DNA from: Podospora anserina
Lineage: Eukaryota
Assembly: GCA_017654855.1 (NCBI GenBank)
Contig: CM030335.1
Location: 1,736,001-1,800,000, forward strand
DNA: 64,000 bases
Reading direction: 5' to 3'
Part shown: positions 27,293-60,201 of the stretch, one piece after another
How positions within the stretch are numbered: position 1 is the first letter of the stretch
Layout of the letters: each line of letters starts with the position of its first letter
Made by a program: the position numbers and the translations under genes
The notes under the pieces: generated by a model
Databases searched by the model: none
Told to the model about the DNA's origin: nothing
The model's input: the letters and a program-made list of their open reading frames with translations, nothing else

Positions 27293-29498
27293 TCAAACAT
27301 GCCCTACATCCTCTTTTCTGGGTATTACCGGCAACAGCAGATAGTTCGCATACTGCTTCGAAATATGGACGTAATTTGTGCCTTGGAAGATATCCGGAGA
27401 TCTGCCGCTTATTAGCAATCAGCTGTCATCAAGCCCCGCAAGAAAACCAAACATCCATACCTGTCCACAGCATCATTGTGTAAGAATATCCCAGACCCCT
27501 GGGTATCCCCCGACGCCACCTCCAAAGCCAAGCTCTCCCCTTCTTGAAGAACAACGCAAGTCGGCCACATCTCCACGTCAACAGCGTAGACCTCGCCTTG
27601 AATCACGGGGAGTACATCCCTGCTGGTGTAATCCCGATGCGGCAGCCACGGCTGATGCTTTGGGTGTTTCTCGTTGACCTTTCTCAGTGATACCCTGAGC
27701 CACCCCTTGGTCAAAGGCACAGGATCGCCCGCCGTGCCCGTGTAAAAGATCTCCTTGCCATCCTTGCCAATATGGCGAAGCGTCAGGAACAAGTCGATAT
27801 CCGACGGCGTTGGTCCGCCCACATCAGGGGAGACAGAAACGTTGAGATGGGCGACAATGTGCCCTGTAATCTCCATCTCTTGCCCTGGACCCATGTCAGA
27901 AGGGACAGTCTTGAACGTCAGCCCCTGAAATTCATCAATCGTCCCCAAGGCCCGATATCCCAGCTTTTTTTGCCCCCCTTCGTGAACCCAGTTGTCCATT
28001 CTGGTCATGGCCATGTCCCCTGAAAGATAAAACCTCGCATACTCCGTCCTCTCAATCGGCCACTCCTCCTCCTCTCTCCTCTCAAACGTGTCCCTCTCCC
28101 GCTGGGCATCATTAACGCCCGCATCCCCTTTCCGTATCACCAAATCAACCCTCGCCCTCCTCCCATCAGTCCAACCCCCTCCATCCTCCCCCTTGAGAAA
28201 CGCATCCAAAAAGCTCCTCTGCACCTCCACCTCCTCATCATAATAAAACGGCAGGTCATGCCTCCCGGTGATCATCCTCAAAAACTTCTTTTCGCTCCCC
28301 GCATGTAGATACCCCTGTATGTTCCCCCTCAAATGCAGCAAAATCCCACCCCAGTTTCCAACGCTCAAAACCGGGACGGTAATATCCCCCATATCGTACT
28401 CCTTTTCCCGATAGTACCCCTCATCCCGGTACCTGTTCTCTCGGTTATCAACCGTCTGATCCCTCCTCTCCCTCTCCAACTCCCCCTTTTCCTTCTCCCC
28501 ATTTTCATCCGCCGTCTTCCCCCCCCTTCTGTTCGCGAGTCCGTACTGGTTACCAACAACCTGCCTCTCCCACCACCACCTGACAAACCCATCACTGTAT
28601 ATCCCCCCGTGCCGGCACCGGTCACGGTAGTAATCGCTCATTCCCTCCCACGGGATAATGGCTGCTAAACCTGTCGGTTGGCGGGCAGCTACTCGCCATT
28701 GGGAGCCGGCGTAGTAAGACACGCCTAGCAAGCCTACCTTTCCCGTGGACCAGGGCTGGGACGAGGCCCAGGTTATCAGGGTGACGAAGGCTTCCGAGGT
28801 GGAGCGGGACATTGTATCCAGAAAGCCGGGGGACTGCCCTGTTCCGAGCTCGTCCGCGCGGAGGAGGGCGTAGGAGTGGGCGGTCCAGAATGAGGGGTCG
28901 GGGGTTTCCTGGGGAAAGGAGGTTTGTGAATCAGGGGCTGGGATCAAGGAAGGGCGGCAGGGGGGAGGGGGGATGGGAGAAGGCTTACCCAGCAAGAGTG
29001 AACGGATTTGTGGGCTGGGTTGACTTCGGAGAAGGATTTGGGGTTGAACCTGTAGATAGTACGGGTGGTTAGCCGAGAATCATGCCTGGATGAACTTGGT
29101 CATGGCCCGGACCGGGTTTTATCCCACCTCTGACGAAGCGAAACAATACCAGGTGGTTTTTTCCCGATAGGGAATCACAATCGATATGACCATCGCTGGT
29201 GCGGGGCAACTCACTCGCTATAGGAAATATCCTTCCCGTATGGGCCGTAGGTTACCAACACCGGGACGGGGTTCGTGTCGGAGTCGTGAGGGCGGTAGAT
29301 GTTGCACCGAATCAGGCCGGGGCCAGTGGCCAGGCCGGACACGGGGACGGATACATTCTTGGAAAGGATGTAGGGGAAGGAGGTGCGGTCGTGGGTTGTG
29401 ACGTCGGGGAGGGAGCTGTAATCGCGGTGTTGGGTGGCCGAAGTGGACTTGCCTTCGGTGCCGGAGTGGTTGTCTGGCTTGGGGGCGGTAAGGGTCAT
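27293..29498 (-). CDS. CocE/NonD family alpha/beta hydrolase (peptidase S15, X-Pro dipeptidyl-peptidase-like)
   Basis: PVLVTYGPYGKD, WETPDP, GKVGLLGVSYYAGSQW nucleophile elbow, NWGG..LHLRGN, GDPVPLTKGWLRVSLR; introns ~29214-29050, ~28988-28909, ~27460-27402. Confidence 0.9.
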
Positions 29499-30532: not shown

Positions 30533-33500
30533 CGCGTGTCTGCTTTTGTCCTTGCTTTCAGGAAAAAACGATGTCTCTAAAAGGATGTTAGAGATTTGTT
30601 TGAAAATGGTCAAGTAAATACAGGGGGAGAGGGGTGAGACATACCTGGTTTTTGTCTATATAAAAGAAGTTGGGTTCTCGGGGAATTACTCTTGTCCTAG
30701 CGCTTAGATACCTGAATGTCACCTTTGTTGCGGGGGCATGGTATGGCTGTGGTCTTGAATGATGTATTGTATGCAGCAGCGTCCGGGGCGGTGTGGTTGA
30801 TGGCGTCCTTTGAAAATCCTTTCAACTGCCGTAGATGGGACCAGATTGATACCGTCGTGTGTGTCCTTCTGCCCTTCTCCCGCTCTAAAGAAAATGTGCA
30901 ACTGTCCGACCAGCGGGTTCGCGTCTTCTCACATCCAGCCCAAAAGGAAAATGATAATGAGAGAGACAAACCCCTCGTGAAAGTGGCGCTCACGATGGTC
31001 AAAAGTGAGGTGACTGGCAAGAAAATTGGAGGGGTTGACCCACCCAGGCCAGCTAATCCTGGACAAGCGCCAGATGCAGTGCTGAAGTGTGGTCTCTGTA
31101 GTGGTTCCAGTTGGTCCCAGTTGTGGCCTACCAAGTGGGTATGCGGCGAAGCCTGAGTGGGGATTTCTTTTGCGCCTGTCACCGCTTTTTGGCCTGTGAT
31201 TTGTGAAGTTTGTTCTGTTATTATTGTTTTGCTGGAAAATCAAGAGGTGTTGTCCTGATGAGATGGGAGAGATCGTGAAGGGGGAAAAAGACACGTTGAA
31301 ATATTGGCTTACCCGCCCAGGGTCCTGGTCGCTGTGGGATGGCTGCTGTGCGCCCACACCACCACACCCCTAGAAAAAGGAAGGCAAGGTAAGCGGCTCC
31401 CGAGGATGGAATAGATGAAATATTCATCACACCCCTGCACTGGGATTTGTTTGGCAGCTGAGTTGAGGAGTTCAAGCCCAGGTGGGATGGTGGTGGGCAG
31501 GACTGGCTCCCCGTCGGAGTGTGGCTGCTCACCTTGGCCCCCACTGCCTGCCCCCAGTATGTCTGCATTCTGCATCATGGCGCAAGAGAACCTGCAGGAA
31601 CTTCTCCTGCAAGATGGATGATTTTGAGATGCGCGTGAGCAGCTTTCAATATCGGGATTGAAGGTGAATGAGACTGCATTTCTTGGGTGACGAAATCCAT
31701 TCCCGGCCCCCTCTTCGCTTGTAGGTCTTGGCATTGGCGGGCTGCCCCGGTGGATCACAGGTAGCATGCGGTTATTTTTGTGTAAAATAACCGGCATCCA
31801 CCATGTTCTGATGGAGCCGGGGTTGGATCACTTCTGGGTTCAATGTCAACGTCTGGTCTCCGGTCCGGTCAGTGCTCAGAGGCTCCGGTCTTTGTTTACT
31901 TTCGGTCGGCTGGTTCCCCGGCCGATTCAGGGCAAACGCCGAGCTGTCCGTCGCCGGGAACTCTGACTTCAGGGGCAAGGGGTACGCAGTGGTTCCTTTA
32001 TCAACTTTTCCTTTCAAAGCACCTGCTACTCCCCGTGGTGATCCGCAGGCGTTGTCCTACAACTGAATGGTTGTCTGTGTAGGCTTCTAATCCAGAGTGT
32101 CAATGCATGCCTGCAGGGTAATCTCTGAATTAATGATATGTGACGTGGTTTCCGGTAAATATGGTAGTTCTGTGGCGTTGTCTACCGTCTACGACGTGCT
32201 GTGGTCTGTAGTTCAGCATGCAGTTCAGTCCCGGCCAGCTTTAAGATGCCGGGTATTGATATTCACCAGACGGACACACTGTAAGTATCAAAACTTGCAC
32301 ATTGAAGCATTTACCATATGTAGGTCCCCGGCTCTTGATAATAACGCAACAGACAAGACCACCGCAGGAATATCTTGGAGTGTGGATAACCAATTTTCAA
32401 CTTGATGACGACATAGGGCCTCAACAACGCCAGTTGCAGAGACTTCACCATCAATATCAATTGCCCCTTCCTTGCTCAAAGGTGATGATTGTTGACATGG
32501 CCCGAGCGCCCCCTTTTGTTTATCCGCACTGTATCAACGACTGCTTGTTCAGAGCGACTCTCATGTCCTCCACCACCTTGCCCTCGTTGACTTCTTCTCA
32601 TCATCATCCTCGTTATCTCTTGATATTCCGACTTTTTTCAGCTCCAGCTTCGTTACCAGGCTTCACTCATCGTCAGGGAGCCGATGAGCTGCTTACTCGA
32701 CTCCTATCATTCGAAGGGAACCCTCAATCTCCCCATCAACCTAGAAGTCTCTCAGGATGTCCTGTGCCATCTCGCCAATTTTCACCGCCCAGAGTAGCCA
32801 TCAAGGTGTGCTGTGCTCGTCACTGACCAGCCTGTCAGTCTTTCTCCCACAACCACTACTTCCATATCATCTCTGCCCTCGCACTTCTCCTCTCTCTCTG
32901 CCCTCTCTGCCATTTCTTCTCCTCTCTGCCCTTTCTTTTTCCACATCATTGCCTATCTTCTCATCTTTCCCATCATCTATTACTACTACTGTCACTCTAT
33001 CGACCACCAATATACCCTTCTCTATCAAATCCTCACATCTACTCGACTTCAAAGTCCTTCAGGTCGACTCAGTAGCCGCAAATCAACCCTCTTCTTCATC
33101 TTGGGTTACCAAGCAGTCGACGCACGCCCTCCAATACTTTCCTCACAGGTCGAACCTTCGAGTCGGATGTGCTTCAGGCACCAGTTTGACGCGTTCTGGC
33201 ACGTTCTTACCCTGATGACGCACTTTGAAGCCTCAGGCGACTGACTTCGATGCTGTTCTATGGAATCGTTCCTTCCACTCTTCCCTTCGAGTCGCGCACA
33301 AACCACACACTGTCAATATTATTTCACACATTACCCCGCACTATTCTCTCCTTCTACCTCTTCTGACCGTTGCCCTCAGCCTTCTCATCTTTTCCTGCTT
33401 TTACCTTTTGATTCCCTCAACCTCACAACACTCGTCTTCTTTACTTCTTCTGCCTCTATTCTTCTTTACCTTCGTCTTCTCATCTCTTCCAGTTTCGTCT

Positions 33501-33599
33501 TTTTCCATCTTCCTCCTCAAGCTTATTCCACCAAGCCGATCTACTTATGATCGGGCTTCTTCCTCTTGTTCCTCTTTTTCATCTACCTATTCTTCATTT

Positions 33600-33700
33600 T
33601 CCCCTTTCTCTTTTTCGTCTTCTTCTTCTTCTTCTTCTTCGTCTTCTTCTTTGTCTTCTTTTTCGTCTTCTTCTTCGTCTTCTTCTCCGTCTTCTTCACC
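33600..33700 (+). repeat. (TCT/TCG)n trinucleotide microsatellite
   Basis: Imperfect TCTTCT..TCG repeats visible directly. Confidence 0.9.
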
Positions 33701-33837
33701 AATCACCATTACCTACCTCTAGACATCTACTCGAGTCCGACAGCGCATTTTGCCCACATCAGCCGTTGCGCTCTGGGTCACCTATTTGGCTGGTACGTAT
33801 TCCCCTCGTCATTTTCCCCCCATTCTCCTCCAGGCTT

Positions 33838-33903
33838 CCATGATTATACGCAAGCTCGATTACTTGATTTCCAATGAGAATCAACGTGTTGTTGTTCTGA
33901 CAC
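33838..33903 (+). ncRNA. Intronic box C/D snoRNA candidate 1
   Basis: ATGATTA (33840) .. TTGA .. ATGAGA .. CTGA (33897) inside intron 33793-33983 (GTACGT..GCTAAC..TAG). Confidence 0.55.
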
Positions 33904-34063
33904 TGCCCTCATATCCTTCTCTTGTTTCTCTTGATCCACTTCAGATTCGCGGACATCGCTAACTATTGACATTCGATGACTAGATCAAGCCGGTGTACCA
34001 TCTTCCTTCCAGCGGACTGGAGCCTCTTCTTGGTACGTCTTGACATCTCCCAAGCACACAACC

Positions 34064-34142
34064 CACATGATGATCCTTCTTCCCATTTTTGATTCCACTT
34101 ATGAAAAAAAGAAAGAAGATACTCGACTCGTCGATCTGACAG
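34064..34142 (+). ncRNA. Intronic box C/D snoRNA candidate 2, predicted LSU rRNA guide
   Basis: ATGATGA (34067) .. CTGA (34136) inside intron 34033-34209 (GTACGT..GCTGAC..CAG). TACTCGACTCGTCGA before box D is antisense to the LSU 5'-domain sequence TCGACGAGTCGAGTA (recalled, needs checking). Confidence 0.75.
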
Positions 34143-34390
34143 GTATTTTTCCATTGACACTTATATTTTCCGGGATTCCTTGCGGTCGCTGACTTCATGT
34201 GCATATCAGGTCCATCAAGGCATATGCCAGCTTGATCAACCCGACATGTTCTCGGCCCCAACCTCCTGTGGTCAACGGTGTTTCCAGGGCTTCACAGTTC
34301 AACTTCTTCTTTTTGCTGATTCTAGGCCACTGGCCATGTTCACAAGCGGTATGTACACTCTTCATTTGACACCTCATCCCCCTCCAATGG

Positions 34391-34453
34391 CGCATGATGA
34401 CAATGCTGTGCTTGAATGACAATGAAAGCCACCTCTTGGCATTAATCTAATTT
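34391..34453 (+). ncRNA. Intronic box C/D snoRNA candidate 3 (degenerate D box)
   Basis: Perfect ATGATGA (34394) inside intron 34349-~34530 (GTATGT..GCTAAC..AG); D box is only CTAA. Confidence 0.4.
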
Positions 34454-34720
34454 GCCTTTCCTCATTCCTTGCCTTTCACATCTCTGCATTTTTATGGTAC
34501 AATGTGCTAACCATTTGTTCTCTTCAAGGTCGTCAGTCTATTCACAGCCAAGAGCCCACCTCATCTTCGAACTGCCGCGGCAACCTGGACACTGGTTTGA
34601 TACCTCACCACGGCATGCCCCTTGGCTCCTTCACTTGCCATCAACCTTCTTTCAATCAAGCCCGTTCGGCTGCTATTGGTATGTTCATTCCCTCTATTCC
34701 ACTTCTTCCCCAGCCCAATG

Positions 34721-34793
34721 GGTATGATGACACAACGAATTGATTCGACTCAAATATTGTTAAAAATGGGACTACAGAGTACAGATCTGATTT
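34721..34793 (+). ncRNA. Intronic box C/D snoRNA candidate 4
   Basis: ATGATGA (34724) .. CTGA (34787) inside intron 34679-~34868 (GTATGT..ACTGAC..TAG/CAG); D box ~55 nt upstream of the branch point. Confidence 0.65.
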
Positions 34794-35396
34794 GGCCTTC
34801 ACCATCCACATCACCCTTTCCTTCTGGAGTATTCTGTCCACATTACTGACATTGTTTCCGGCTAGCTGCAGAAACGACTAGGTCATCGACTGCCTACTCT
34901 TTTGCAATTGGTATGTCATCTCTTTCACTTCACCACGTTGCTTTTCATTTGCTGACTCGTCTGGTTTTGCACTATCAGGGTCACAATTTCACAACATCTC
35001 CTCTTCAGCTTTGCAACACTCTCCCGTTGTCCTCTCGACACTCCTCCTCTGTTCGTCCTTATTCGCTTACCCAGCTTCGTTTATCCTCCTTCATTCATCT
35101 TCCCCAAGGTTCAAAACCACCTGCTTGTGCGGCCATGGCTTTTCGGCAGTTGACGCAGCTCTTGCTCAGCGAGCTGTCTTTGCTGCCAAGCCCCTGAGCA
35201 TTGTGCTTCCAACCACACAGCCGGCTCTTTGACATCGCTGCCACCGACCCTTCCTTTCCCGTCCATCCTTCCTCGATCACACTTTTCCTATCTTTTCTTC
35301 ATCCCCTTCATGTTCCCACCCCTTTTCTCACCACCGGTAGCCAGCGTTGCCTCTCTTCCCCCATCCCCTTCCCAACCATCACCATCACCACCCACC

Positions 35397-38300
35397 GGCC
35401 CAATGATGGCACAACAGGACCCCTGTCTTTGCTCTTGGCACGGCATTGACAGCCCTGTTTCTGAGGGCCAAGGGGAAGCCAGGACGGTACACCCGACGCA
35501 TGGGCTTTCCCTTCCTGGCCGCAACTCGGGTTACTGTACCAGGTTTTCGGAGTTGTTTTCTTTGAGGGGGGGTGGCTGAGGACGTGGGTTCGTTGTCGGG
35601 CTCGCTTCGCCCCGCGTAGGTCATCCTCCTGGGTCCCTGGAGCCCACATTTCCATTTCTTTCTGCCCTCATGATGATGAGGTGGGCAAGCTCCTTTGCAG
35701 ACGCGGGGGAGTACTGTTGCACGTGCTGAGGGCAGATTTTCACCCATCGTTCTGTAGCGCTTTGCCGGCGCGAGGAAACGACTGTGTGCGTGGAAAGGCT
35801 TGTTGTGTTCTCATACTGAGACGCGATCAAGGAGCCTAACTGGGTGGCAATCAGGCACGCGCTCGGGGGCATCATCAAGTTCGTTCGCCGGAGCACTCTC
35901 TGGTTCGCTTGAGGGAGCGTTGAACTCGGAGATCATTTCGAAACTCGGTTTTCCCTCGACCTTGCGAGCGCAGTACAGTGTGTATCAGACGGGTTGGAAG
36001 ATCTTCACCCCGGATGGACTCTCGTCTGTTGGCTGGTGGTCAATGGGTGGACAACACCATCAAGATCGCCACATGCATGGTGTTTTGCGTCTCGGGCCTA
36101 TCACTAGCGCGGAGGTTAAGACTGAGGACGAAATCGCTTGCTTGACGATGTCGGCTGGCTTTCCGAGATCTGTCTCGCGCCTGTCAAGGTTTGTTGGGGT
36201 GTTTTTCTTTCTCTTCCCATTCCCCCTTCCCCGAGAGTTGTTGCGGTGTTGCTTTTCTTTCTCTATTTCCCCGTTGTTGTTGCCAGTTGGGCTTGGTGTT
36301 TCTTTTTCTTTTTTGTCGGTTGTTGTTGGGGTGTTTCTTTTCATTCGGGCCCCTGTTGGCAGTTGGTGTTGTCGGTTGGGGTTTCACTCTATCTGCCCCT
36401 ATTCAGTTGGTGTTGTCAGTCGGGGTGTTGTTGGGGGTGTTCCTTTACCTGCCTTCTGGCCCAATGATGACACGACATTCTGCTCTGCAAACGCAACAAT
36501 CTGTCTATCCTGAGGGCTTCTCCTGGAACAGAGGAGTCTTTTTTCTCAGTCTTCTGCATCTGGATTTGGCGATGGATGTTGCTGGGGTGGTCCTTTTTTC
36601 CCCTGCTGTTTTTCAGTTTTTCTTTTCTCTGGTCGATGATGAGAATGTCTGCCACTGACTAGACTTCTGAGACCCTCTTTTCTTTCTACTTCTTTTGTTT
36701 TCTTTCCTCTCCTTTTCAGCCTTTTTTCCTGTCTTTTCCAACCGTTTTCTTGTCTTGTCTTTTCCTTTCACACACCTCCGGTTTTTGCCTTTCCCCTTAT
36801 TTGGCCTGTGACATATATGTTAGTCAAGAGGCTGACAGACTTCTGAGGCTTACTTCCTTCTTTCTTTCTTTTCTTTCTGGTTTTTTCCGCTTCTCTTTTG
36901 CCTTGCTTTTCTATCTTGCTTCTTATTTTCTTTTCTATTTCCCTTTTCTGCCCCTGCGGTTTTGCATTTCCTTCACTGCTGCCCGTGATGAATATGTCGG
37001 CCAAACGGCTGGGACATCTGAGGCTCCGTTTCTTTTTTCTTTTGTTTTTTCTGTTTTCCTTTTCGCTTTTCCTTCTGTTTTGCCCTTTTTTTTTCCTCTC
37101 TTTTCTTACCTTTTTCTCCCTTCATTTTTATCTCCTTTTCTTTCACTTTTTATTCCCGCTTTTATTCTGTTTTCTTTTCTTGTTTTCTTTCCAGTTTTTC
37201 CCTCATTTTTCTCTTCAGTTCCTGCATTTTCATCATCATATAGCCCATGATGAGTTTGTCAGCAACGGCTAGACATTTGAGGCTCTTTCTTTTCTCACCT
37301 ACTCTCCCCTCTTAGATTTTTTTATGCCTGTTCCAGGCTACTTTTCTTACGTTATATTTTTCCATGAACTACTGAAGCTCAACACCGACGCTCAACAAGA
37401 CCAATGATGAAAGTGTCTCGCCGAGACTCTGAGGTTTTTCACTTTTCTCTGTGGGACCTGGGGGATCACTTTGGCTGCCTGCTTGTTTTTTTCTCTAGGC
37501 AAGTCCAATTCTTCGTCTTTTTCTCAGACTGGCTTTTGTCAGTGACGTTCGACTGTGAGATATGGCACCGATGACAATGGCAGACCTATACAGGGCTTGG
37601 CTTGCTAGTCTGAGGTCTTGCGCAGTTGCCCGACATACAGGGCGTACGGATTTGAAGAATACACGTGGGGTTGGTGGTGGACATCAGGACCATTTTTCTT
37701 TCTCATGTCCGCTTTTGTTTCCTTTTCTACTTTTTCTTCCCTACCCTTCGTTGCCTTGTTTCAATCGTTCTTCACCTCTTTTCCCTTTACTTTTATCCTT
37801 TTCCTCCCCTGTTCGCATTTCTCTGCTCTTTTTACCTTTCTCTGCCGTCTTTACTTTTCTCTTTCCCGTTCCCCGTTTTATCTTACAACATCACACCTCT
37901 TTCATGCGTCTTAGCGCAGGCATTTTCACCCAAACACGAAGAGTTTCACAGACCGATGATGACATATGCACACACATCCCTCCCGTCGTTTCGTTTCTCG
38001 CGGGAGAGAGACCTGTTTATTTTCTCGAAGGTCTAGTGCCACACACAGTTTGAGGTCATCATTTTCGCCTGGTCGTTTCTCACGTTTGGAGAGGGCTTCG
38101 TCAAACAACCACACTTTTGCTTCTACCTTTATTTGTCTTTTTTTCCCTTCATTTCTGCTGTCCTTACCCTTCTTTTTCACATTTTCTTTTCTACACTATC
38201 CTTCCCTCTTGTCCTTCTTTAGGCTTTCACAAAGTTTTTCTCCTTTTGACACCGAAACTATCAGAGACCAATGATGATAATCACCCCCGCATTGCTTTTC

Positions 38301-38770
38301 TTTTCTCACGCGGGAGTGAGACCTGTCTTGTTTTCTTCCACAGATCGAGTATTCCAAGTCTGAGGTCTTTATCGTTTTTTCTTTCTCAAGTTGTGCTTTT
38401 TGAGGGCTCTTGGGGGCACGCTTCTCTTGTTTTGTGGCTGGACAGACACCTGTAGTTGCAGTCATTTTCCCCGTCAACACGAAACTATCACAGACCAATG
38501 ATGACACCTACACGCATCCCTCCCGTTGTTTTCTTTCTCTCACGGGAGGGTGACCTGTTGTTTCTTTTCTCACAGGCCAAGCATCAAAGTCTGAGGTCTG
38601 AGGCTTTTCACTCTGGGGGATAAATTTGTGTAGTATTCTTTTTTCTTTTCATGCAACAAGACCTGTGATGACAATCACACACCCATCCCCCACCTCTCGT
38701 GGGTGGCAGGGAAGGAAAGACCTGGGGATATTGGTCCCGATAGGTCGAGTGTTATACAAGTTCTGAGGTC
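35397..38770 (+). ncRNA. Array of ~13 stem-closed box C/D (kink-turn) modules in pyrimidine-rich spacers
   Basis: Units at 35397-35469, 35661-35736, 36458-36518, 36631-36674, 36803-36850, 36981-37024, 37242-37284, 37398-37437, 37566-37617, 37951-38057, 38266-38367, 38493-38598 and 38660-38770. Each is stem-NN-(R)TGATGA...(C/T)TGA-complementary stem; the C box is degenerate in three. Confidence 0.75.
35760..36190 (+). ncRNA. Unidentified ~420-nt multibranch structured RNA domain
   Basis: Nested complementary pairs: GGCGCGAG 35767/CTCGCGCC 36174, GGAAAG 35792/CTTTCC 36159, GAGACGCG 35818/TGCGTCTC 36086, GCGCTCG/CGAGCGC, CAGACG/CGTCTG, AACACCAT/ATGGTGTT. Confidence 0.55.
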
Positions 38771-39091
38771 ATTGGTGTTACGAAGGGGTGTTTGTGGGGA
38801 TCTGGGAAGAGTCTGGGGGTTGCTGTGGGGATCAAGGTGGTTTTGGATGGTGGTTTACAGATAGAGAGTGTGTCGATGGAGGTAGCTTGGAAGAATGGTG
38901 TTCAATACGCGTATCTATATTGTCTTGTTCATCTAAAAGTATAAGAAACCAGATATTGGTCTAGCTTACATACATCAAGACATCTGTCAGAAACATTCCT
39001 CCGTTGTGCTCAGTCACTGTCCGCAACACCGATCCTCCGGAGTCATAACAAACCAACAATCACGCTACCTCTGAACCGTCAACCTCCCCTT

Positions 39092-40947
39092 TCACCGCCG
39101 ATAACCACCATACAACTGATGACGAGGTCCCGAGTGTTCCGGGGGCCAAAATTCATCCTCGGAGTCAGAGTCAGCCTGCGCCTGCCAACGCGGACCCCCA
39201 TAGCCATCCCTTGCCCGGCCAAAATCAGCATTGTCAAATGTTTGTGACCTTCGATTTTGCAACATTGGCATGACTGTCTGCGAATGTCGCGGGTATGGCA
39301 TGTTGTCTGTCCTTTCTTTGCTTCCCCGTGGGTTTATCCTGGGACTCTCGTACGGAGCAGAAGGTGACAGTCGCACATCATAACACTTTTGGTGATCTCT
39401 CTTGTTTCTTGGCGGCAGAATTGACTCTTGTAAGGAGCTCGATGAAGCAGCAGGGGAACAACTCATCGGAGCGGTGGGCATAACTGCTTCCACGTCAGGT
39501 GGACTGACGTAGATGTTGAGGTTGTCGTGGGGTGAGGTGGCGGGCATATCGACGATGCTAGGAACCCAAGGGCGAGTATCAGGACTTCCGGTTCGTAGAC
39601 GCCCGTTTTGAGAGGTTGTTGAATAGGCTGGCGAAAGGGAACGGGAACTGAGAACTGAAGAGAGCGCACTAGGAGGGCGTGCCTCATCCACGTCATGGAA
39701 TTCCATGCAGAAACTGACATTGTCCTCCCATGATGCATTCTTGAGAGAAGCTGGTGAATGGGTTCCCGCGCTGATGGCTCGAGGACTTGAAGGTTTGAGC
39801 TGAGAGGCGGCAAGGGCAGATGAAGACCTCTCTGCGGTTACGGGGCACCGTTCCTCTTTGGCATGCCCAGCTGGTTTGGCGGATATAGCTCCTCCCACGG
39901 TCGACGTCTCAGCCGGGTCTACTTGCGGCTCAAGCGGTCCCAGCAACCCGAACTCATGAGTTGTGTTGGAGGACATCAGAGGATCTGGAATCTTGCCGTC
40001 GGGTTGACGTCGTCTCCAACTAGCGGTCCTTCGTCGAAGGGCTCGATGCAACTGGCTGATACTGAAAGTCTCCGTATTGTTTCCAAACTCCTCAAGTTGT
40101 GCGCATAGGTTTTGGGTGAACGTATAGTCCCCATCTTGGATAGCCTTGCCATCAATGTCAACAGCCGCGAGAGTGACCATTGGTCTCGGCGGTGGCCGAT
40201 GCATGTGATCTATCGCATGCTGGCCTCTCTGCGCGTAGCAGCAGTCCAAGAGAATCAGGATATCAGCACCCTCTACATATTGTATTCTTGATAAAACATC
40301 CGTCGCCCAAGAAACGGATACGTCCTTGCTTTTTGGGCATCTTATCGTCAAGTTAGCGAAGGCAGCTAGCTCGTCGAGAAAGAATTTCGGGAGACTTACG
40401 GAACTAATAACAGGTCATTATCGGGTTCGTGGGGGTTGGCCACCGCATGACCACCGTAGTAGATGATGAGCAGGTCCAATGCGCCCTCCTCCTTCTTACT
40501 GCATTCATTGATCCGCTCGACAGTCTCGTTCAGTTTCTTGTCCAAGGCACGAGGATATTTTTCTGACGGAATGAGCCACTGCTCAATGTCATAGTTGTAT
40601 CCCAGCTGAAGAGTGTGGACAAACTCCTCCAGTTGCGTGTGAAACGGGTTCTCCCCCGTAGATGCATGCTCTCCTCCATCTTCTTCCCAGGCAAGGAACA
40701 GTCCCAAGACATTCTGATACTGTTGTTGACCCATCATACACTGTGTTGTGGAGTGTAGAGAAGCAGAATGCCGGCCGCAAATTGGGCGACATGGTGTTCC
40801 AAGGTTGGGCTGCTCCGTTGATGGGCACGGAGCCCAATCGAGGGGTCTGTTCCCTGTGTGGTTCAAACATCTGCGCCTGTTATCCATTGGTTCCAAAAGT
40901 CCCTCAAGTATCCTCAACATCACTTCCAAGGTCTCCATGCAGCTCAA
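39092..40947 (-). CDS. Caspase-fold (clan CD, C14-like) protease domain protein with disordered C-terminus
   Basis: VLGLFLAWEED, LLIIYYGGHA (catalytic His), DILILLDCCYA (catalytic Cys), FTQNL..L. Intron 40399-40341 (GTAAGT..GCTAAC..AAG) joins the two ORFs in frame. Start uncertain (~40736 or 40938/40947). Confidence 0.8.
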
Positions 40948-41971: not shown

Positions 41972-42373
41972 GGTCTGTGGCTGTAAGAAGAGAGGGACAG
42001 AGCATGTGGGGTTGAACAGAAGGGCGCTGGGTTAGGGGTCCCCGAACTGGTCATCCACTGCACAACATTTTGTTTCAATAGCATCATCCTTGCTGAAAGC
42101 ATTTCTCCACCGAAATAATTCTGCATTAGCTCAATTTCCATCAAACATGCAAATTATCAATAGTTCTGCCACCGCCGATAGGCACCTCCGATCCCCGCCC
42201 CGGACCCCTCCGGGAGCCGCCGAGAATCCTTGGCGCGCCCTCGGCCATCGCCGTCACCGGCCCCGGAGAGCCCAACACGGCGATCGATAAAAGGACACCG
42301 GTGCTCAACAACAGATCACATCATCACCCAACACCACAACATCCAACCACACAACAACATCATCACCACCACC

Positions 42374-43048
42374 ATGCCCACCAACACCAACACCCCCCCG
42401 AACCCGCACCCCCCCTCAACTCTCCTCACCACCCTCCTCACCCTCACCGAGTCCACCATAATCCCCCTCACCACCACCGGCGTCTCCTCCGGCTCAAAAC
42501 TCTTCGGCGCCTCCATCCTCTCCCGCGACACCCTGTCCCCCATAACAACAGCCACAAACAACGAAGCCCTCTCCCCCCTCCTCCACGGCGAAATAAACTG
42601 CATCCAGCAATTCTTCACCACCATCCCCCCCTCCTCCCGCCCCTCCCCTTCTTCCTGCATCTTTTTCGCCACACACGAGCCCTGCTCCCTCTGTCTGTCT
42701 GGAATCACCTGGGCTGGGTTCAACGAGTTCTACTATTTGTTCACCTACGAGGACTCAAGAGACGCGTTCAATATCCCGTATGACATTGACATTCTGGAGG
42801 AGGTGTTCAAAGTAAGGGGAGAAAATGAGGGGGAGGGTGAGTTTAAGAGGAGGGGGTTGTATAACAAGAATAACAAGTTCTTCAAGAGCAAGAGTCTAGG
42901 GGAGCTGATCGAGGAGGTGGAGGATGGGAAGGAGAGGGAGTACTTCAGGGGGGAGGTCAAGAGGCTAAAGGGGTTATATGACGCGCTCAGTGAGACGTAC
43001 CAGAAGGGCAAGGCGGAGGGTGTGGGGAGTGAGAGTGTTTGGAAGTAA
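42374..43048 (+). CDS. Cytidine/deoxycytidylate deaminase-like zinc enzyme (guanine deaminase-like)
   Basis: GSKLFGASIL, SPLLHGEINCI and THEPCSLC zinc-binding motifs; likely start MPTNT at 42374. Confidence 0.9.
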   Translation: MPTNTNTPPNPHPPSTLLTTLLTLTESTIIPLTTTGVSSGSKLFGASILSRDTLSPITTATNNEALSPLLHGEINCIQQFFTTIPPSSRPSPSSCIFFATHEPCSLCLSGITWAGFNEFYYLFTYEDSRDAFNIPYDIDILEEVFKVRGENEGEGEFKRRGLYNKNNKFFKSKSLGELIEEVEDGKEREYFRGEVKRLKGLYDALSETYQKGKAEGVGSESVWK

Positions 43049-60119: not shown

Positions 60120-60201
60120 CGACGTGGGCCTGATTCGAACAGACGCTCCCGAAGGAACAAGATTTCTAGTCTTGCGCGTTAGACCACTCCGCCACCACGC
60201 C
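60120..60201 (-). tRNA. tRNA-Ser(AGA), intronless
   Basis: GGCGTGG acceptor/CCACGTC+G, D arm TGGCGGAGTGGTCTAA, anticodon stem CAAGA-CTAGAAA-TCTTG, long variable arm, GTTCGAAT T loop, downstream T run. Confidence 0.95.

What the first reader, a model, noticed from the sequence alone, without database searches (positions are those of the whole stretch)
35397..38770. Tandem array of ~13 stem-closed C/D kink-turn modules outside recognisable introns
Seen: 13 same-strand units with canonical geometry (3-7 bp stem, short bulge, RTGATGA...CTGA, complementary stem). The closing stems differ but stay paired (GGCCC/GGGCC, CTGCCC/GGGCAG, GGTC/GACC, GACC/GGTC, AGCC/GGCT). Units are separated by T/C-rich spacers in which I see no convincing splice signals. 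Established: C/D motifs form K-turns bound by Snu13/15.5K. Inference: either an expanded polycistronic orphan snoRNA cluster or one long ncRNA acting as a multivalent snoRNP-protein scaffold or sponge. I know of no described fungal locus like it.
Basis: partly seen in the sequence, partly recalled or inferred. Interest (0 to 1): 0.88.

Follow-up and report, generated by a model that had tools for sequence, protein, structure and literature searches.

The report
Unspliced fungal box C/D module array
A 3.4-kb stretch of an ascomycete genome carries thirteen head-to-tail box C/D (kink-turn) RNA modules just downstream of an ordinary intron-type snoRNA host gene and is transcribed without splicing, an unusual layout for a fungus whose RNA products and targets are still unknown.

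Summary
On the + strand, 35397-38770 carries 13 stem-closed C/D units. Eleven have canonical boxes, and U5 and U9 have decayed C boxes. A relaxed grammar finds 9 hits in the excised array, against a mean of 0.21 in 300 shuffles and 0 on the reverse strand. In 12 of 13 units exactly one base separates the closing stem from box C.

Directly upstream (33.7-35.0 kb) lies a UHG-like non-coding host gene. RNA contigs confirm five GT..AG introns there, and four of them hold C/D snoRNA-like units.

The array has no splice signals and no splice joints. One unspliced 3.2-kb RNA contig covers it, but the strand was not determined.

The units form diverged paralogue families. Boxes are 94% canonical, while inner sequences are 59-69% identical. 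Five units are only 42-48 nt long, too short for a canonical guide. No Rfam family matches, and I found no convincing rRNA antisense element, although that test had low power.

Best reading: a lineage-specific, tandemly expanded, non-intronic extension of a snoRNA host locus that yields mostly orphan C/D small RNAs. A stable multivalent K-turn lncRNA is not excluded. I could not test conservation in relatives. I rate it a new variant of a known kind, of moderate interest.

The parts
33556..33697 (+). CTT-type microsatellite (12-nt unit TCTTCTTCGTCT) just upstream of the first host exon seen in RNA contigs; candidate CT-rich promoter tract
   Evidence: TRF; the X5 RNA contig begins at 33699. 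The promoter role is inferred.
33793..33983 (+). Host intron 1, holding C/D-like unit I1 (about 33836-33905; C box ATGATTA, D box CTGA)
   Evidence: GT..AG joint in RNA contigs of X1 and X5, absent from DNA run X15; sequence
34033..34209 (+). Host intron 2 (alternative 3' splice site at 34219 in X1), holding snoRNA I2 (about 34062-34143). Its D guide is a 15-nt exact antisense to fungal 25S rRNA.
   Evidence: Joints; antisense match in 5 of 8 rDNA loci exact and 7 of 7 25S with 1 mismatch or fewer; score 19.0 against shuffles 13.0 +/- 1.4
34349..34529 (+). Host intron 3 (alternative 3' splice site at 34537 in X5), holding C/D-like unit I3 (about 34392-34462; canonical C box, D box unclear)
   Evidence: Joints; weak D' antisense to 25S in 5 rDNAs
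34679..34865 (+). Host intron 4, holding canonical C/D snoRNA I4 (34719-34794)
   Evidence: Joint in X1 and X5; strict-grammar hit
34911..34978 (+). Host intron 5 (68 nt), no snoRNA
   Evidence: Joint in X1 and X5
35397..35469 (+). U1: C box ATGATGG, D box CTGA, stem GGCCC/GGGCC. The inner region folds into a long hairpin, and the 12 nt before box D are mostly paired (P unpaired 0.09). Its 5' end resembles that of U3.
35661..35736 (+). U2: two overlapping ATGATGA registers, D box CTGA, 7-bp stem. It is the most stable fold of the set (z = -4.2). A 1-nt deletion at 35675 in the C box is present in runs X1 and X5.
   Evidence: variant
35737..36457 (+). Long spacer. 35737-36190 has balanced composition, no Pfam match and no unusual fold. 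36190-36457 alternates G/T-rich and C/T-rich blocks.
36458..36518 (+). U3: canonical boxes, stem GGCCC/GGGCT, 61 nt, largely unstructured. A marginal 12/13 antisense to 18S lies next to box D, at a level expected by chance.
36631..36674 (+). U4: mini unit, 44 nt, 24 nt between the boxes, inner hairpin GUCUG/UAGAC
36803..36850 (+). U5: mini unit, a paralogue of U4 with a decayed C box (GTGACAT, 4/7). D box and 4-bp stem are intact.
   Evidence: (family D12)
36981..37024 (+). U6: mini unit, canonical boxes, 3-bp stem, inner hairpin
37242..37284 (+). U7: mini unit, C box ATGATGA, D box TTGA, stem AGCC/GGCT
37397..37438 (+). U8: mini unit, only 18 nt between the boxes, inner hairpin GUCUC/GAGAC. 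Its 5' flank and stem resemble those of U10-U12.
   Evidence: (family D4)
37567..37616 (+). U9: marginal unit, C box ATGACAA (5/7), D box CTGA, 3-bp stem. Taken alone it cannot be told from chance.
37951..38057 (+). U10: long unit (107 nt), D box TTGA, two inner hairpins
38263..38370 (+). U11: long unit (108 nt), 7-bp stem, two inner hairpins. The 25 nt of 5' flank plus C box are 96% identical to U12.
38491..38600 (+). U12: long unit (110 nt), 6-bp stem, two inner hairpins
38660..38770 (+). U13: long unit (111 nt), the last of the array. The pyrimidine skew of the + strand ends here.
36675..37241 (+). Three almost purine-free U/C spacers (Y = 0.86-0.88) between U4 and U7

Best explanation
The finding is the 3' two-thirds of a non-coding snoRNA locus of about 5 kb in an ascomycete.

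The 5' third (33.7-35.0 kb) is a classical UHG-like host gene. It has five short introns, and four of them carry a box C/D snoRNA(-like) unit.

The next 3.4 kb is not spliced. It carries 13 further head-to-tail C/D modules that arose by repeated local duplication and then diverged. Families: U1/U3; U2; the 42-48-nt minis U4-U8; the 107-111-nt U10-U13. U9 is marginal.

What has been kept in each module is exactly what nucleates a C/D snoRNP: the closing stem, a 3-nt bulge, the tandem G.A pairs of boxes C and D, and the U.U and G-C pairs of stem II.

Most likely mechanism (inferred):
1. Pol II transcribes the whole stretch as one precursor.
2. Snu13 and the Nop58/Nop56/Nop1 core assemble on each K-turn.
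3. Endo- and exonucleolytic trimming of the structure-free U/C spacers releases the modules as small RNAs, in the plant or yeast polycistronic mode and without splicing.

The purine-poor spacers cannot pair with one another, so each module folds on its own. Most products would be lineage-specific orphans. The minis cannot be canonical methylation guides, and U5 and U9 are decaying copies.
For: Shown:
- Module geometry and enrichment far above chance, and on one strand only.
- Five GT..AG introns upstream in spliced contigs of two studies, absent from a DNA run.
- The intronic unit I2 has a 15-nt exact antisense to fungal 25S rRNA next to box D, so the locus is a genuine snoRNA locus.
- The array has no splice joints. 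One unspliced 3187-nt contig covers it in X1 (35540-38727, depth 17.2). The spliced host exons have depth 7.4 and the upstream intergenic stretch 0-2.8. X5 also covers it with one contig.
- X1 contigs overlap from the last host exon into the array (about 35090-35116 and 35540-35563). The first overlap rests on my arithmetic from record lengths.
- There is no canonical 5' splice site or branch point in the array.
- Boxes are canonical at 135 of 143 positions, while inner sequences are 59-69% identical within families (shuffled partners 49-55%). BLAST aligns units only among U10-U12, plus short box or low-complexity matches of U7 and U8.
- Two of the four closing-stem pairs of the minis show compensatory double changes.
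- The two strain SNPs inside U10 and U11 fall in hairpin loops.
- The + strand pyrimidine skew runs from about 32.4 kb to 38.7 kb and stops at U13.

From the literature:
- N. crassa has UHG-like C/D clusters, with one exon-encoded member, CD6 (PMC2780460: abstract, passages and Table 1 read).
- Plant and yeast polycistronic clusters are processed without splicing (background passages of the same paper).
Against: - The strand of the RNA over the array is not established, because contigs carry no strand information.
- No small-RNA data exist, so excision is inferred.
- No unit matches an Rfam family.
- No unit has a convincing rRNA antisense element.
- U2 has a C-box indel in two other strains, and U5 and U9 are decayed. 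Constraint is therefore not uniform.
- The box-versus-inner contrast is partly ascertainment, because units were found by their boxes.
- The spacers offer no RNase III-type stem-loops. An endonucleolytic entry route is assumed.
- The unspliced long RNA is more abundant than the spliced host RNA in X1 (17.2 against 7.4). That is not what one expects of a short-lived precursor, though contig depth is a poor measure.
- Conservation in relatives could not be tested.
Confidence: 0.55

Rival explanations
1. The array stays in one piece, or in large snoRNP-capped pieces like mammalian SPA or sno-lncRNA species. It would then act as a stable long non-coding RNA presenting up to 13 K-turns. Such an RNA could scaffold or buffer Snu13 and the C/D core proteins, and its U/C tracts could bind pyrimidine-tract proteins.
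For: - The unspliced 3.2-kb contig is deeper than the spliced host exons in X1 (17.2 against 7.4). In X7 it is assembled while the host exons are not.
- Contigs of three studies end at 35550-35572, and the deeper contig starts at 35540 or 35591. This is a weak hint of a separate downstream RNA that begins before U2.
- Five units are too short (18-28 nt between the boxes) to guide, and each is closed by an inner hairpin.
- U1 has its pre-D region paired.
- SPA and sno-lncRNA precedents are described in PMC11028025 (passages read).
Against: - There is no evidence on RNA ends, stability, localisation or protein binding.
- Contig depth cannot rank RNA species.
- The long units U10-U13 have accessible single-stranded stretches before box D (P unpaired 0.63-0.68), as guide snoRNAs do.
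- A precursor would give the same contigs.
Confidence: 0.2
2. The array is a neutral by-product. Tandem duplicates of one or two snoRNAs accumulated downstream of the host gene, are read through by the polymerase and are slowly decaying. They have no function of their own.
For: - U5 and U9 have decayed C boxes.
- U2 carries a C-box deletion polymorphism.
- No targets were found.
- No Rfam family matches.
- Three of the 7 strain variants in the array fall inside units, which make up 27% of its length, so there is no visible depletion.
Against: - Eleven of 13 units keep canonical boxes and a paired stem although their inner sequences have diverged beyond BLAST detection between families.
- There are compensatory stem changes.
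- The 1-nt stem-to-box spacing is uniform in 12 of 13 units.
- A review states that fungi tend to lose snoRNA families and do not keep remnants (PMC11028025, passage read).
Confidence: 0.15
3. Each unit is an independently transcribed monocistronic snoRNA gene. The CT-rich tract upstream of each unit serves as its core promoter. The long RNA contig is read-through between neighbouring genes.
For: - CT-rich tracts precede most units.
- A CT microsatellite also precedes the host gene.
- N. crassa has independently transcribed C/D genes, and co-transcribed neighbours that each have a putative promoter (PMC2780460, passage read).
- That CT boxes mark filamentous-fungus promoters is recalled from memory and was not checked.
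Against: - A single contig spans 12 units and all their spacers.
- Spacers as short as 59-130 nt leave little room for promoters plus terminators.
- No transcription-start data are available.
Confidence: 0.07
4. The RNA coverage comes from the - strand, for example an antisense RNA or read-through from the convergent gene at 39092-40351. The + strand modules would then not be expressed at all.
For: - Contigs are unstranded.
- In X5 one contig joins the array to the neighbouring - strand gene.
Against: - In X1 and X7 the neighbour's contig stops at 38907 or 39017 and is separate from the array contig, which ends at 38727.
- X1 contigs overlap from + strand spliced exons into the array.
- All 13 modules and the strand skew point the same way as the host gene.
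Confidence: 0.03

Closest known systems
[quoted passage not shown]
   Same: A non-coding Pol II host gene carrying several same-strand C/D snoRNAs. Upstream part of this locus: one snoRNA per short intron and alternative 3' splice sites. N. crassa cluster III also has one exon-encoded snoRNA (CD6).
   Different: The 13 units of the finding are not in introns at all. The clusters named in the passages I read are small: 18 C/D plus one H/ACA gene in seven S. pombe clusters, and up to seven genes in the Ascomycota snR72-78-type cluster (PMC5824354). This locus holds 17. Many of its units are paralogues with no recognisable target, and five are 42-48 nt long.
Polycistronic snoRNA clusters of plants and budding yeast (for example the seven-gene snR72-78 transcript; cited in PMC2780460 and PMC5824354)
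   Same: Head-to-tail snoRNAs with short spacers, one precursor, no splicing, and release by nucleases up to the snoRNP boundary.
   Different: Yeast spacers carry Rnt1 stem-loops (recalled from memory), whereas these spacers are almost purine-free and cannot form stems. Members of those clusters are distinct, conserved guide snoRNAs. Here the units are mostly diverged duplicates without targets. This array is also appended to an intron-type host gene.
Mammalian tandem arrays of orphan C/D snoRNAs (SNORD115/116) with their sno-lncRNA and SPA derivatives (PMC11028025, passages read)
   Same: Local tandem amplification of orphan C/D units within a non-coding transcription unit, and the possibility of snoRNP-capped long RNAs that sequester proteins.
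   Different: The mammalian copies each lie in an intron of a repeated exon-intron unit and are near-identical. Here there are no introns, the copies are strongly diverged and the organism is a fungus. No capped long species has been shown.
Stand-alone K-turn hairpins bound by Snu13/15.5K/L7Ae (U4 snRNA 5' stem-loop, U3 B/C motif, L7Ae or L30 autoregulatory K-turns). This comparison is recalled from memory, not from a call.
   Same: The minis U4-U8 have the helix / 3-nt bulge / G.A pairs / short capped helix layout, with no room for a guide.
   Different: They carry full C/D-type box sequences (the U.U and G-C pairs of stem II). There are five in a row inside a snoRNA locus. They are not part of an snRNA and do not sit in the mRNA of a K-turn-binding protein.

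Membership tests
Eukaryotic box C/D snoRNA | Box C (RUGAUGA) near the 5' end and box D (CUGA) near the 3' end | tested here: met
   Ten units have a 7/7 C box, U1 has 6/7, U9 5/7 and U5 4/7. Box D is CTGA in 11 units and TTGA in 2. The feature is met for 11 of 13 units.
Eukaryotic box C/D snoRNA | A terminal stem that brings C and D together into a K-turn (stem I, 3-nt bulge, tandem G.A) | tested here: met
   All 13 units have stems of 3-7 bp. In 12 of 13 exactly 1 nt precedes the R of box C, which gives the 3-nt bulge. The stems close in the MFE folds of all 13. The K-turn itself is inferred from sequence.
Eukaryotic box C/D snoRNA | An antisense element of 10-21 nt ending next to box D or D', complementary to rRNA or snRNA, with the target at the 5th position | tested here: inconclusive
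   I searched 18S, 5.8S and 25S sequences of up to eight fungal rDNA loci recovered from contaminant and metagenome contigs. No array unit exceeds its shuffles. The best case is U3, at 12/13, a level expected by chance. Of the four intronic control units only I2 is clear and I3 is weak, so power is low. The organism's own rRNA, snRNAs and tRNAs were not available. U4-U8 have only 18-28 nt between the boxes.
Eukaryotic box C/D snoRNA | Accumulates as a discrete small RNA bound by Snu13, Nop56, Nop58 and Nop1 | not testable with these tools
   Only assembled contigs of public runs were available, with no small-RNA or CLIP data.
Any curated Rfam snoRNA family | Score at or above the family's gathering threshold | tested here: not met
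   At gathering thresholds the whole window yields only a tRNA. The E-value scan of 34500-39500 gives, over the units, only SNORD86 at 17.9 bits (gathering 35) on U1 and sR47 at 15.6 bits (gathering 40) on U4.
UHG-like host gene (one snoRNA per intron) | Each snoRNA lies in its own spliced intron of a non-coding host | tested here: not met
   Met for the upstream units I1-I4, with joints in X1 and X5. Not met for U1-U13: there are no joints in any RNA contig, no GTAYGT site, and no branch-point consensus outside the units.
Polycistronic (non-intronic) snoRNA cluster | Several same-strand snoRNAs on one unspliced precursor | tested here: inconclusive
   One contig covers U2-U12 and most of U13 (35540-38727, X1), and another covers 35591-40000 (X5). 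The strand and the precursor-product relation are not shown.
Polycistronic (non-intronic) snoRNA cluster | Spacer elements that let nucleases in (Rnt1-type stem-loops in yeast) | tested here: not met
   The spacers between U4 and U7 are 86-88% pyrimidine and cannot form G+C stems. No specific scan for AGNN tetraloops was run.
sno-lncRNA / SPA | A long RNA whose 5' end, or both ends, are defined by a snoRNP and not by a cap | not testable with these tools
   Contigs cannot show RNA ends. The only indication is contig ends near 35550-35590 in three runs, which is a weak hint.

The most novel reading that the evidence does not exclude
The array is not merely a precursor. It would be a fungal counterpart of SPA or sno-lncRNA biology: a stable, unspliced RNA that starts behind the host gene's 3' end and is protected by snoRNPs assembled on up to 13 K-turn modules. 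Guide-less mini modules and purine-free U/C spacers would make it a multivalent platform. That platform could buffer Snu13 and the C/D core proteins, or pyrimidine-tract binders, in step with ribosome production.
Probability: 0.18. Interest if true: 0.8.

Novelty: new variant of a known kind. Interest (0 to 1): 0.55.

Why it matters
Fungal box C/D snoRNAs are described as intronic, monocistronic or in small conserved clusters, and fungi are said to lose snoRNA families where other groups keep remnants of them.

This locus combines features that would extend the known range of fungal snoRNA gene organisation:
- an intron-type host gene joined to a long non-intronic array of diverged paralogues;
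- guide-less K-turn hairpins of 42-48 nt;
- purine-free spacers.

It offers a compact natural case for three questions. How are non-intronic snoRNAs released without Rnt1-type signals? How do new orphan snoRNAs arise and die? Can snoRNP-capped or multivalent K-turn long RNAs, known so far from mammals, exist in fungi?

If the units prove to be ordinary lineage-specific guides, the locus is simply the largest C/D cluster in a fungal genome that I met in the papers I read.

Tried and rejected
- **Rfam.** The gathering scan of the window and E-value scans of 34500-39500 and 32500-35000 gave no snoRNA family. This holds even for the confirmed intronic units, so Rfam is insensitive for this lineage.
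- **Whole genome.** None is held for this window.
- **Sequencing runs.** No RNA holder is listed. All runs are marked 'RNA? (a guess)'. I treat X1 and X5 as holding RNA only because their contigs carry GT..AG joints that the DNA run X15 lacks. Parts without cover in X7 are not used as evidence.
- **Cross-species search.** A metagenome scan with the I2 snoRNA as anchor found 0 stretches. No eukaryotic genome collection was available, so conservation is untested.
- **rRNA targets.**
  - I recovered fungal rDNA from contaminant contigs of bacterial assemblies and from metagenome contigs.
  - The genome search with Rfam family RF02543 failed twice.
  - A recalled LSU primer found nothing in G001.
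  - L030 and L047 are only 84% identical to the fungal 18S, so I dropped them from the later target sets.
  - L058 is a divergent eukaryote with group I introns.
  - The target searches found only I2 clearly.
  - The hits for U3, U11, U12 and U13 are at chance level or in low-complexity sequence.
- **Protein coding.** Four ORFs of 116-237 aa within or overlapping the array have no Pfam match.
- **Segment 35737-36200.** Its fold z-score is -0.95, so it is not notably structured.
- **Fold stability of the units.** Only U2 (z = -4.2) and U5 (z = -2.8) stand out. The other units lie between +0.2 and -2.0.
- **Accessibility.** The regions next to the boxes are not clearly less accessible in array units than in the intronic controls, except in U1. 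I dropped the idea that all units are closed and guide-less.
- **Hidden decayed units.** The very loose grammar adds none in the spacers.
- **Other copies.** BLAST finds none elsewhere in the window.
- **Literature.** A sequence-string search found only an unrelated PCR paper.


Full report
**1. The observation**

I read 34800-39400 and measured each unit.

- Each has a closing stem of 3-7 bp and a box D that abuts the 3' arm of the stem.
- In 12 of 13, exactly one base lies between the 5' arm and the purine of box C. This is the geometry that gives the 3-nt bulge of a C/D kink-turn.
- Box C is 7/7 in ten units, 6/7 in U1, 5/7 in U9 and 4/7 in U5.
- Box D is CTGA in eleven units and TTGA in U7 and U10.

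Chance does not explain this.

- A strict grammar finds 7 hits on the + strand of the 64-kb window. Six are in the array and one is just upstream. The - strand has 2.
- A relaxed grammar finds 10 hits in the array, 10 elsewhere on + and 11 on -.
- The excised array scores 9. Its 300 dinucleotide shuffles average 0.21 with a maximum of 2, and its reverse strand scores 0.
- Under a very loose grammar the background is about 2 per kb. U5 and U9 are therefore credible only as members of the array. U5 aligns with U4 and U6.

The spacers between U4 and U7 are 86-88% pyrimidine. The others are 55-74%, while the units themselves are 51%.

**2.

The stretch 33.7-35.0 kb, immediately upstream, is a classical non-coding snoRNA host gene.

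Contigs of two runs from different studies (X1, X5) carry GT..AG joints that the DNA run X15 lacks:
- 33793-33983
- 34033-34209 (alternative 3' site at 34219)
- 34349-34529 (alternative 3' site at 34537)
- 34679-34865
- 34911-34978

This also shows that those runs hold RNA. The first four introns each hold a C/D-like unit.

- I4 (34719-34794) passes the strict grammar.
- I2 has a 15-nt exact antisense next to its box D, complementary to a fungal 25S rRNA site near position 255. It is exact in 5 of 8 rDNA loci and present with 1 mismatch or fewer in 7 of 7 25S sequences. Its score is 19.0, against 13.0 +/- 1.4 for shuffles.

All five GTRNGT matches in the host are real 5' splice sites. The array has no GTAYGT site, and its only two branch-point-like matches lie inside U4 and U5.

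Three things point to an ascomycete: the short introns, the rRNA match, and the neighbour protein's nearest Atlas clusters, which are Ascomycota. I did not determine the species.

**3. Transcription**

- In X1 one unspliced contig of 3187 nt covers 35540-38727 at depth 17.2.
- For comparison, the spliced host-exon contig has depth 7.4, the intergenic 32.5-33.5 kb stretch has 0-2.8, and the convergent neighbour gene has 33.9.
- In X5 one contig runs from 35591 to beyond 40000.
- In X7 the array is covered in pieces at depth 2-4.
- No contig shows a joint inside the array.

X1 contigs overlap from the last host exon into the array, at about 35090-35116 (my arithmetic from record lengths) and at 35540-35563. 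Continuous + strand transcription from the host into the array is therefore the simplest reading. Contigs carry no strand information, however.

Contigs of all three runs end at 35550-35572, which is a weak hint of an RNA boundary between U1 and U2.

The pyrimidine skew of the + strand runs from about 32.4 kb and stops at U13.

**4. Anatomy and history of the units**

They fall into families.
- U1 and U3 share their 5' ends.
- U2 stands alone.
- U4-U8 are minis of 42-48 nt with 18-28 nt between the boxes. Each is closed by an inner hairpin.
- U10-U13 are 107-111 nt long, with two inner hairpins and single-stranded stretches after box C and before box D.
- U8 shares its 5' flank and stem with U10-U12.

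Divergence is deep. BLAST aligns units only among U10-U12, plus short box or low-complexity matches involving U7 and U8, and finds no other copy in the window.

Inner sequences are 59-69% identical within families, against 49-55% for shuffled partners. Boxes are canonical at 135 of 143 positions. Two of the four closing-stem pairs of the minis show compensatory double changes.

This argues that the K-turn and its stem have been maintained after duplication. The contrast is partly ascertainment, because the units were found by their boxes.

Some evidence points against uniform constraint.
- U5 and U9 are decayed.
- Runs X1 and X5 carry a 1-nt deletion inside U2's C box.
- The two SNPs in U10 and U11 fall in hairpin loops.
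- Three of the 7 variants in the array lie inside units, which make up 27% of its length.

**5. Guides**

No Rfam family matches any unit. Rfam also misses the intronic units.

No fungal genome was held. I therefore recovered fungal rDNA from contaminant contigs in bacterial assemblies and from metagenome contigs, and searched for antisense elements both with and without a box constraint.

- No array unit exceeds its shuffles.
- U3's 12/13 match next to box D is at a level expected by chance after multiple testing (my estimate).
- Of the four intronic controls, only I2 is clear and I3 is weak, so the test has low power.
- The organism's own rRNA, snRNAs and tRNAs were not available.

The minis cannot hold a canonical guide. 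U10-U13 could, because the 12 nt before their box D have an unpaired probability of 0.63-0.68. These stretches differ between the four paralogues.

**6. Mechanism**

Shown:
- a snoRNA host locus with spliced 5' introns;
- an unspliced, transcribed array of K-turn modules with maintained boxes and stems;
- purine-poor spacers.

Inferred:
- one Pol II precursor;
- co-transcriptional assembly of Snu13 and Nop58/Nop56/Nop1 on each module;
- nuclease trimming of the unstructured spacers to release small RNAs, as in plant and yeast polycistronic clusters;
- spacers that act as insulators, because U/C tracts cannot pair with each other.

I give this reading 0.55. The rivals are:
- a stable multivalent K-turn lncRNA, SPA- or sno-lncRNA-like (0.20);
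- neutral decaying duplicates (0.15);
- independent genes with CT-rich promoters (0.07);
- transcription from the - strand only (0.03).

**7. Comparison with what is known**

- N. crassa has six C/D clusters in UHG-like hosts with one snoRNA per intron. One member, CD6, is exon-encoded, and alternative splicing occurs (PMC2780460: abstract, passages and Table 1 read).
- S. pombe has seven such clusters holding 18 C/D genes and one H/ACA gene (PMC4138321, passages read).
- The Ascomycota snR72-78-type cluster has up to seven genes in about 1.5 kb (PMC5824354, passages read).
- For PMC3596301 I saw only the outline and abstract.
- A review notes that fungi tend to lose snoRNA families and not to keep remnants, and it describes the mammalian sno-lncRNAs and SPAs (PMC11028025, passages read).

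None of these passages describes a fungal array of a dozen non-intronic, diverged C/D paralogues, and none of my searches turned one up.

**8. Verdict**

The locus is a new variant of a known kind: a snoRNA host locus with a tandemly expanded, non-intronic extension. I score interest at 0.55. The structure is real and unusual, but three things are missing: small-RNA evidence, the strand of the transcript, and cross-species evidence.

Noticed in passing
window 34032-34219 and 34348-34537: Host introns 2 and 3 use different 3' splice sites in different runs: 34209 against 34219, and 34529 against 34537. This looks like the alternative splicing reported for N. crassa snoRNA host genes.
   Followed up: partly
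window 35675: Runs X1 and X5 carry a 1-nt deletion inside the doubled ATGATGATGA C box of U2. The window and DNA run X15 do not have it. This is a within-species polymorphism that degrades a box.
   Followed up: partly
window 33556-33697: A CTT-type microsatellite (12-nt unit TCTTCTTCGTCT, about 7 copies, 89% matches) lies immediately upstream of the first host exon seen in RNA contigs.
   Followed up: no
window 36190-36457: Between U2 and U3, G/T-rich blocks (GTTGTTGGGGTG-like) alternate with C/T-rich blocks. TRF does not call this a repeat, and I have no explanation for it.
   Followed up: no
window 37660-37720: In the long U9-U10 spacer there is a 6-bp hairpin, GGACAT...ATGTCC. Its 5' arm runs into GGACATCAGGACC, which resembles the 3' end of U6 with the TG of box D missing. 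It may be the remnant of a lost unit.
   Followed up: no
window 60120-60201 (-): A tRNA gene is the only Rfam gathering-level hit in the window (52.9 bits).
   Followed up: no
window 27412-28995 (-), 42230-43048 (+), 39092-40351 (-): Flanking ORFs: an X-Pro dipeptidyl-peptidase (S15) family protein, a cytidine/deoxycytidylate deaminase-domain ORF, and a convergent 419-aa ORF with no Pfam match whose nearest Atlas clusters are Ascomycota hypothetical proteins.
   Followed up: partly
loci L016, L042, L043 (bacterial genome assemblies): Three actinomycete assemblies hold contigs with 100% identical fungal 18S rDNA, which looks like a shared fungal contaminant.
   Followed up: partly
locus L058 (contig in a cyanobacterial assembly): A complete eukaryotic rDNA unit whose LSU spans 5.5 kb, with group I introns in both SSU and LSU. 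It sits on a 31.7-kb contig assigned to a Nostoc genome.
   Followed up: no
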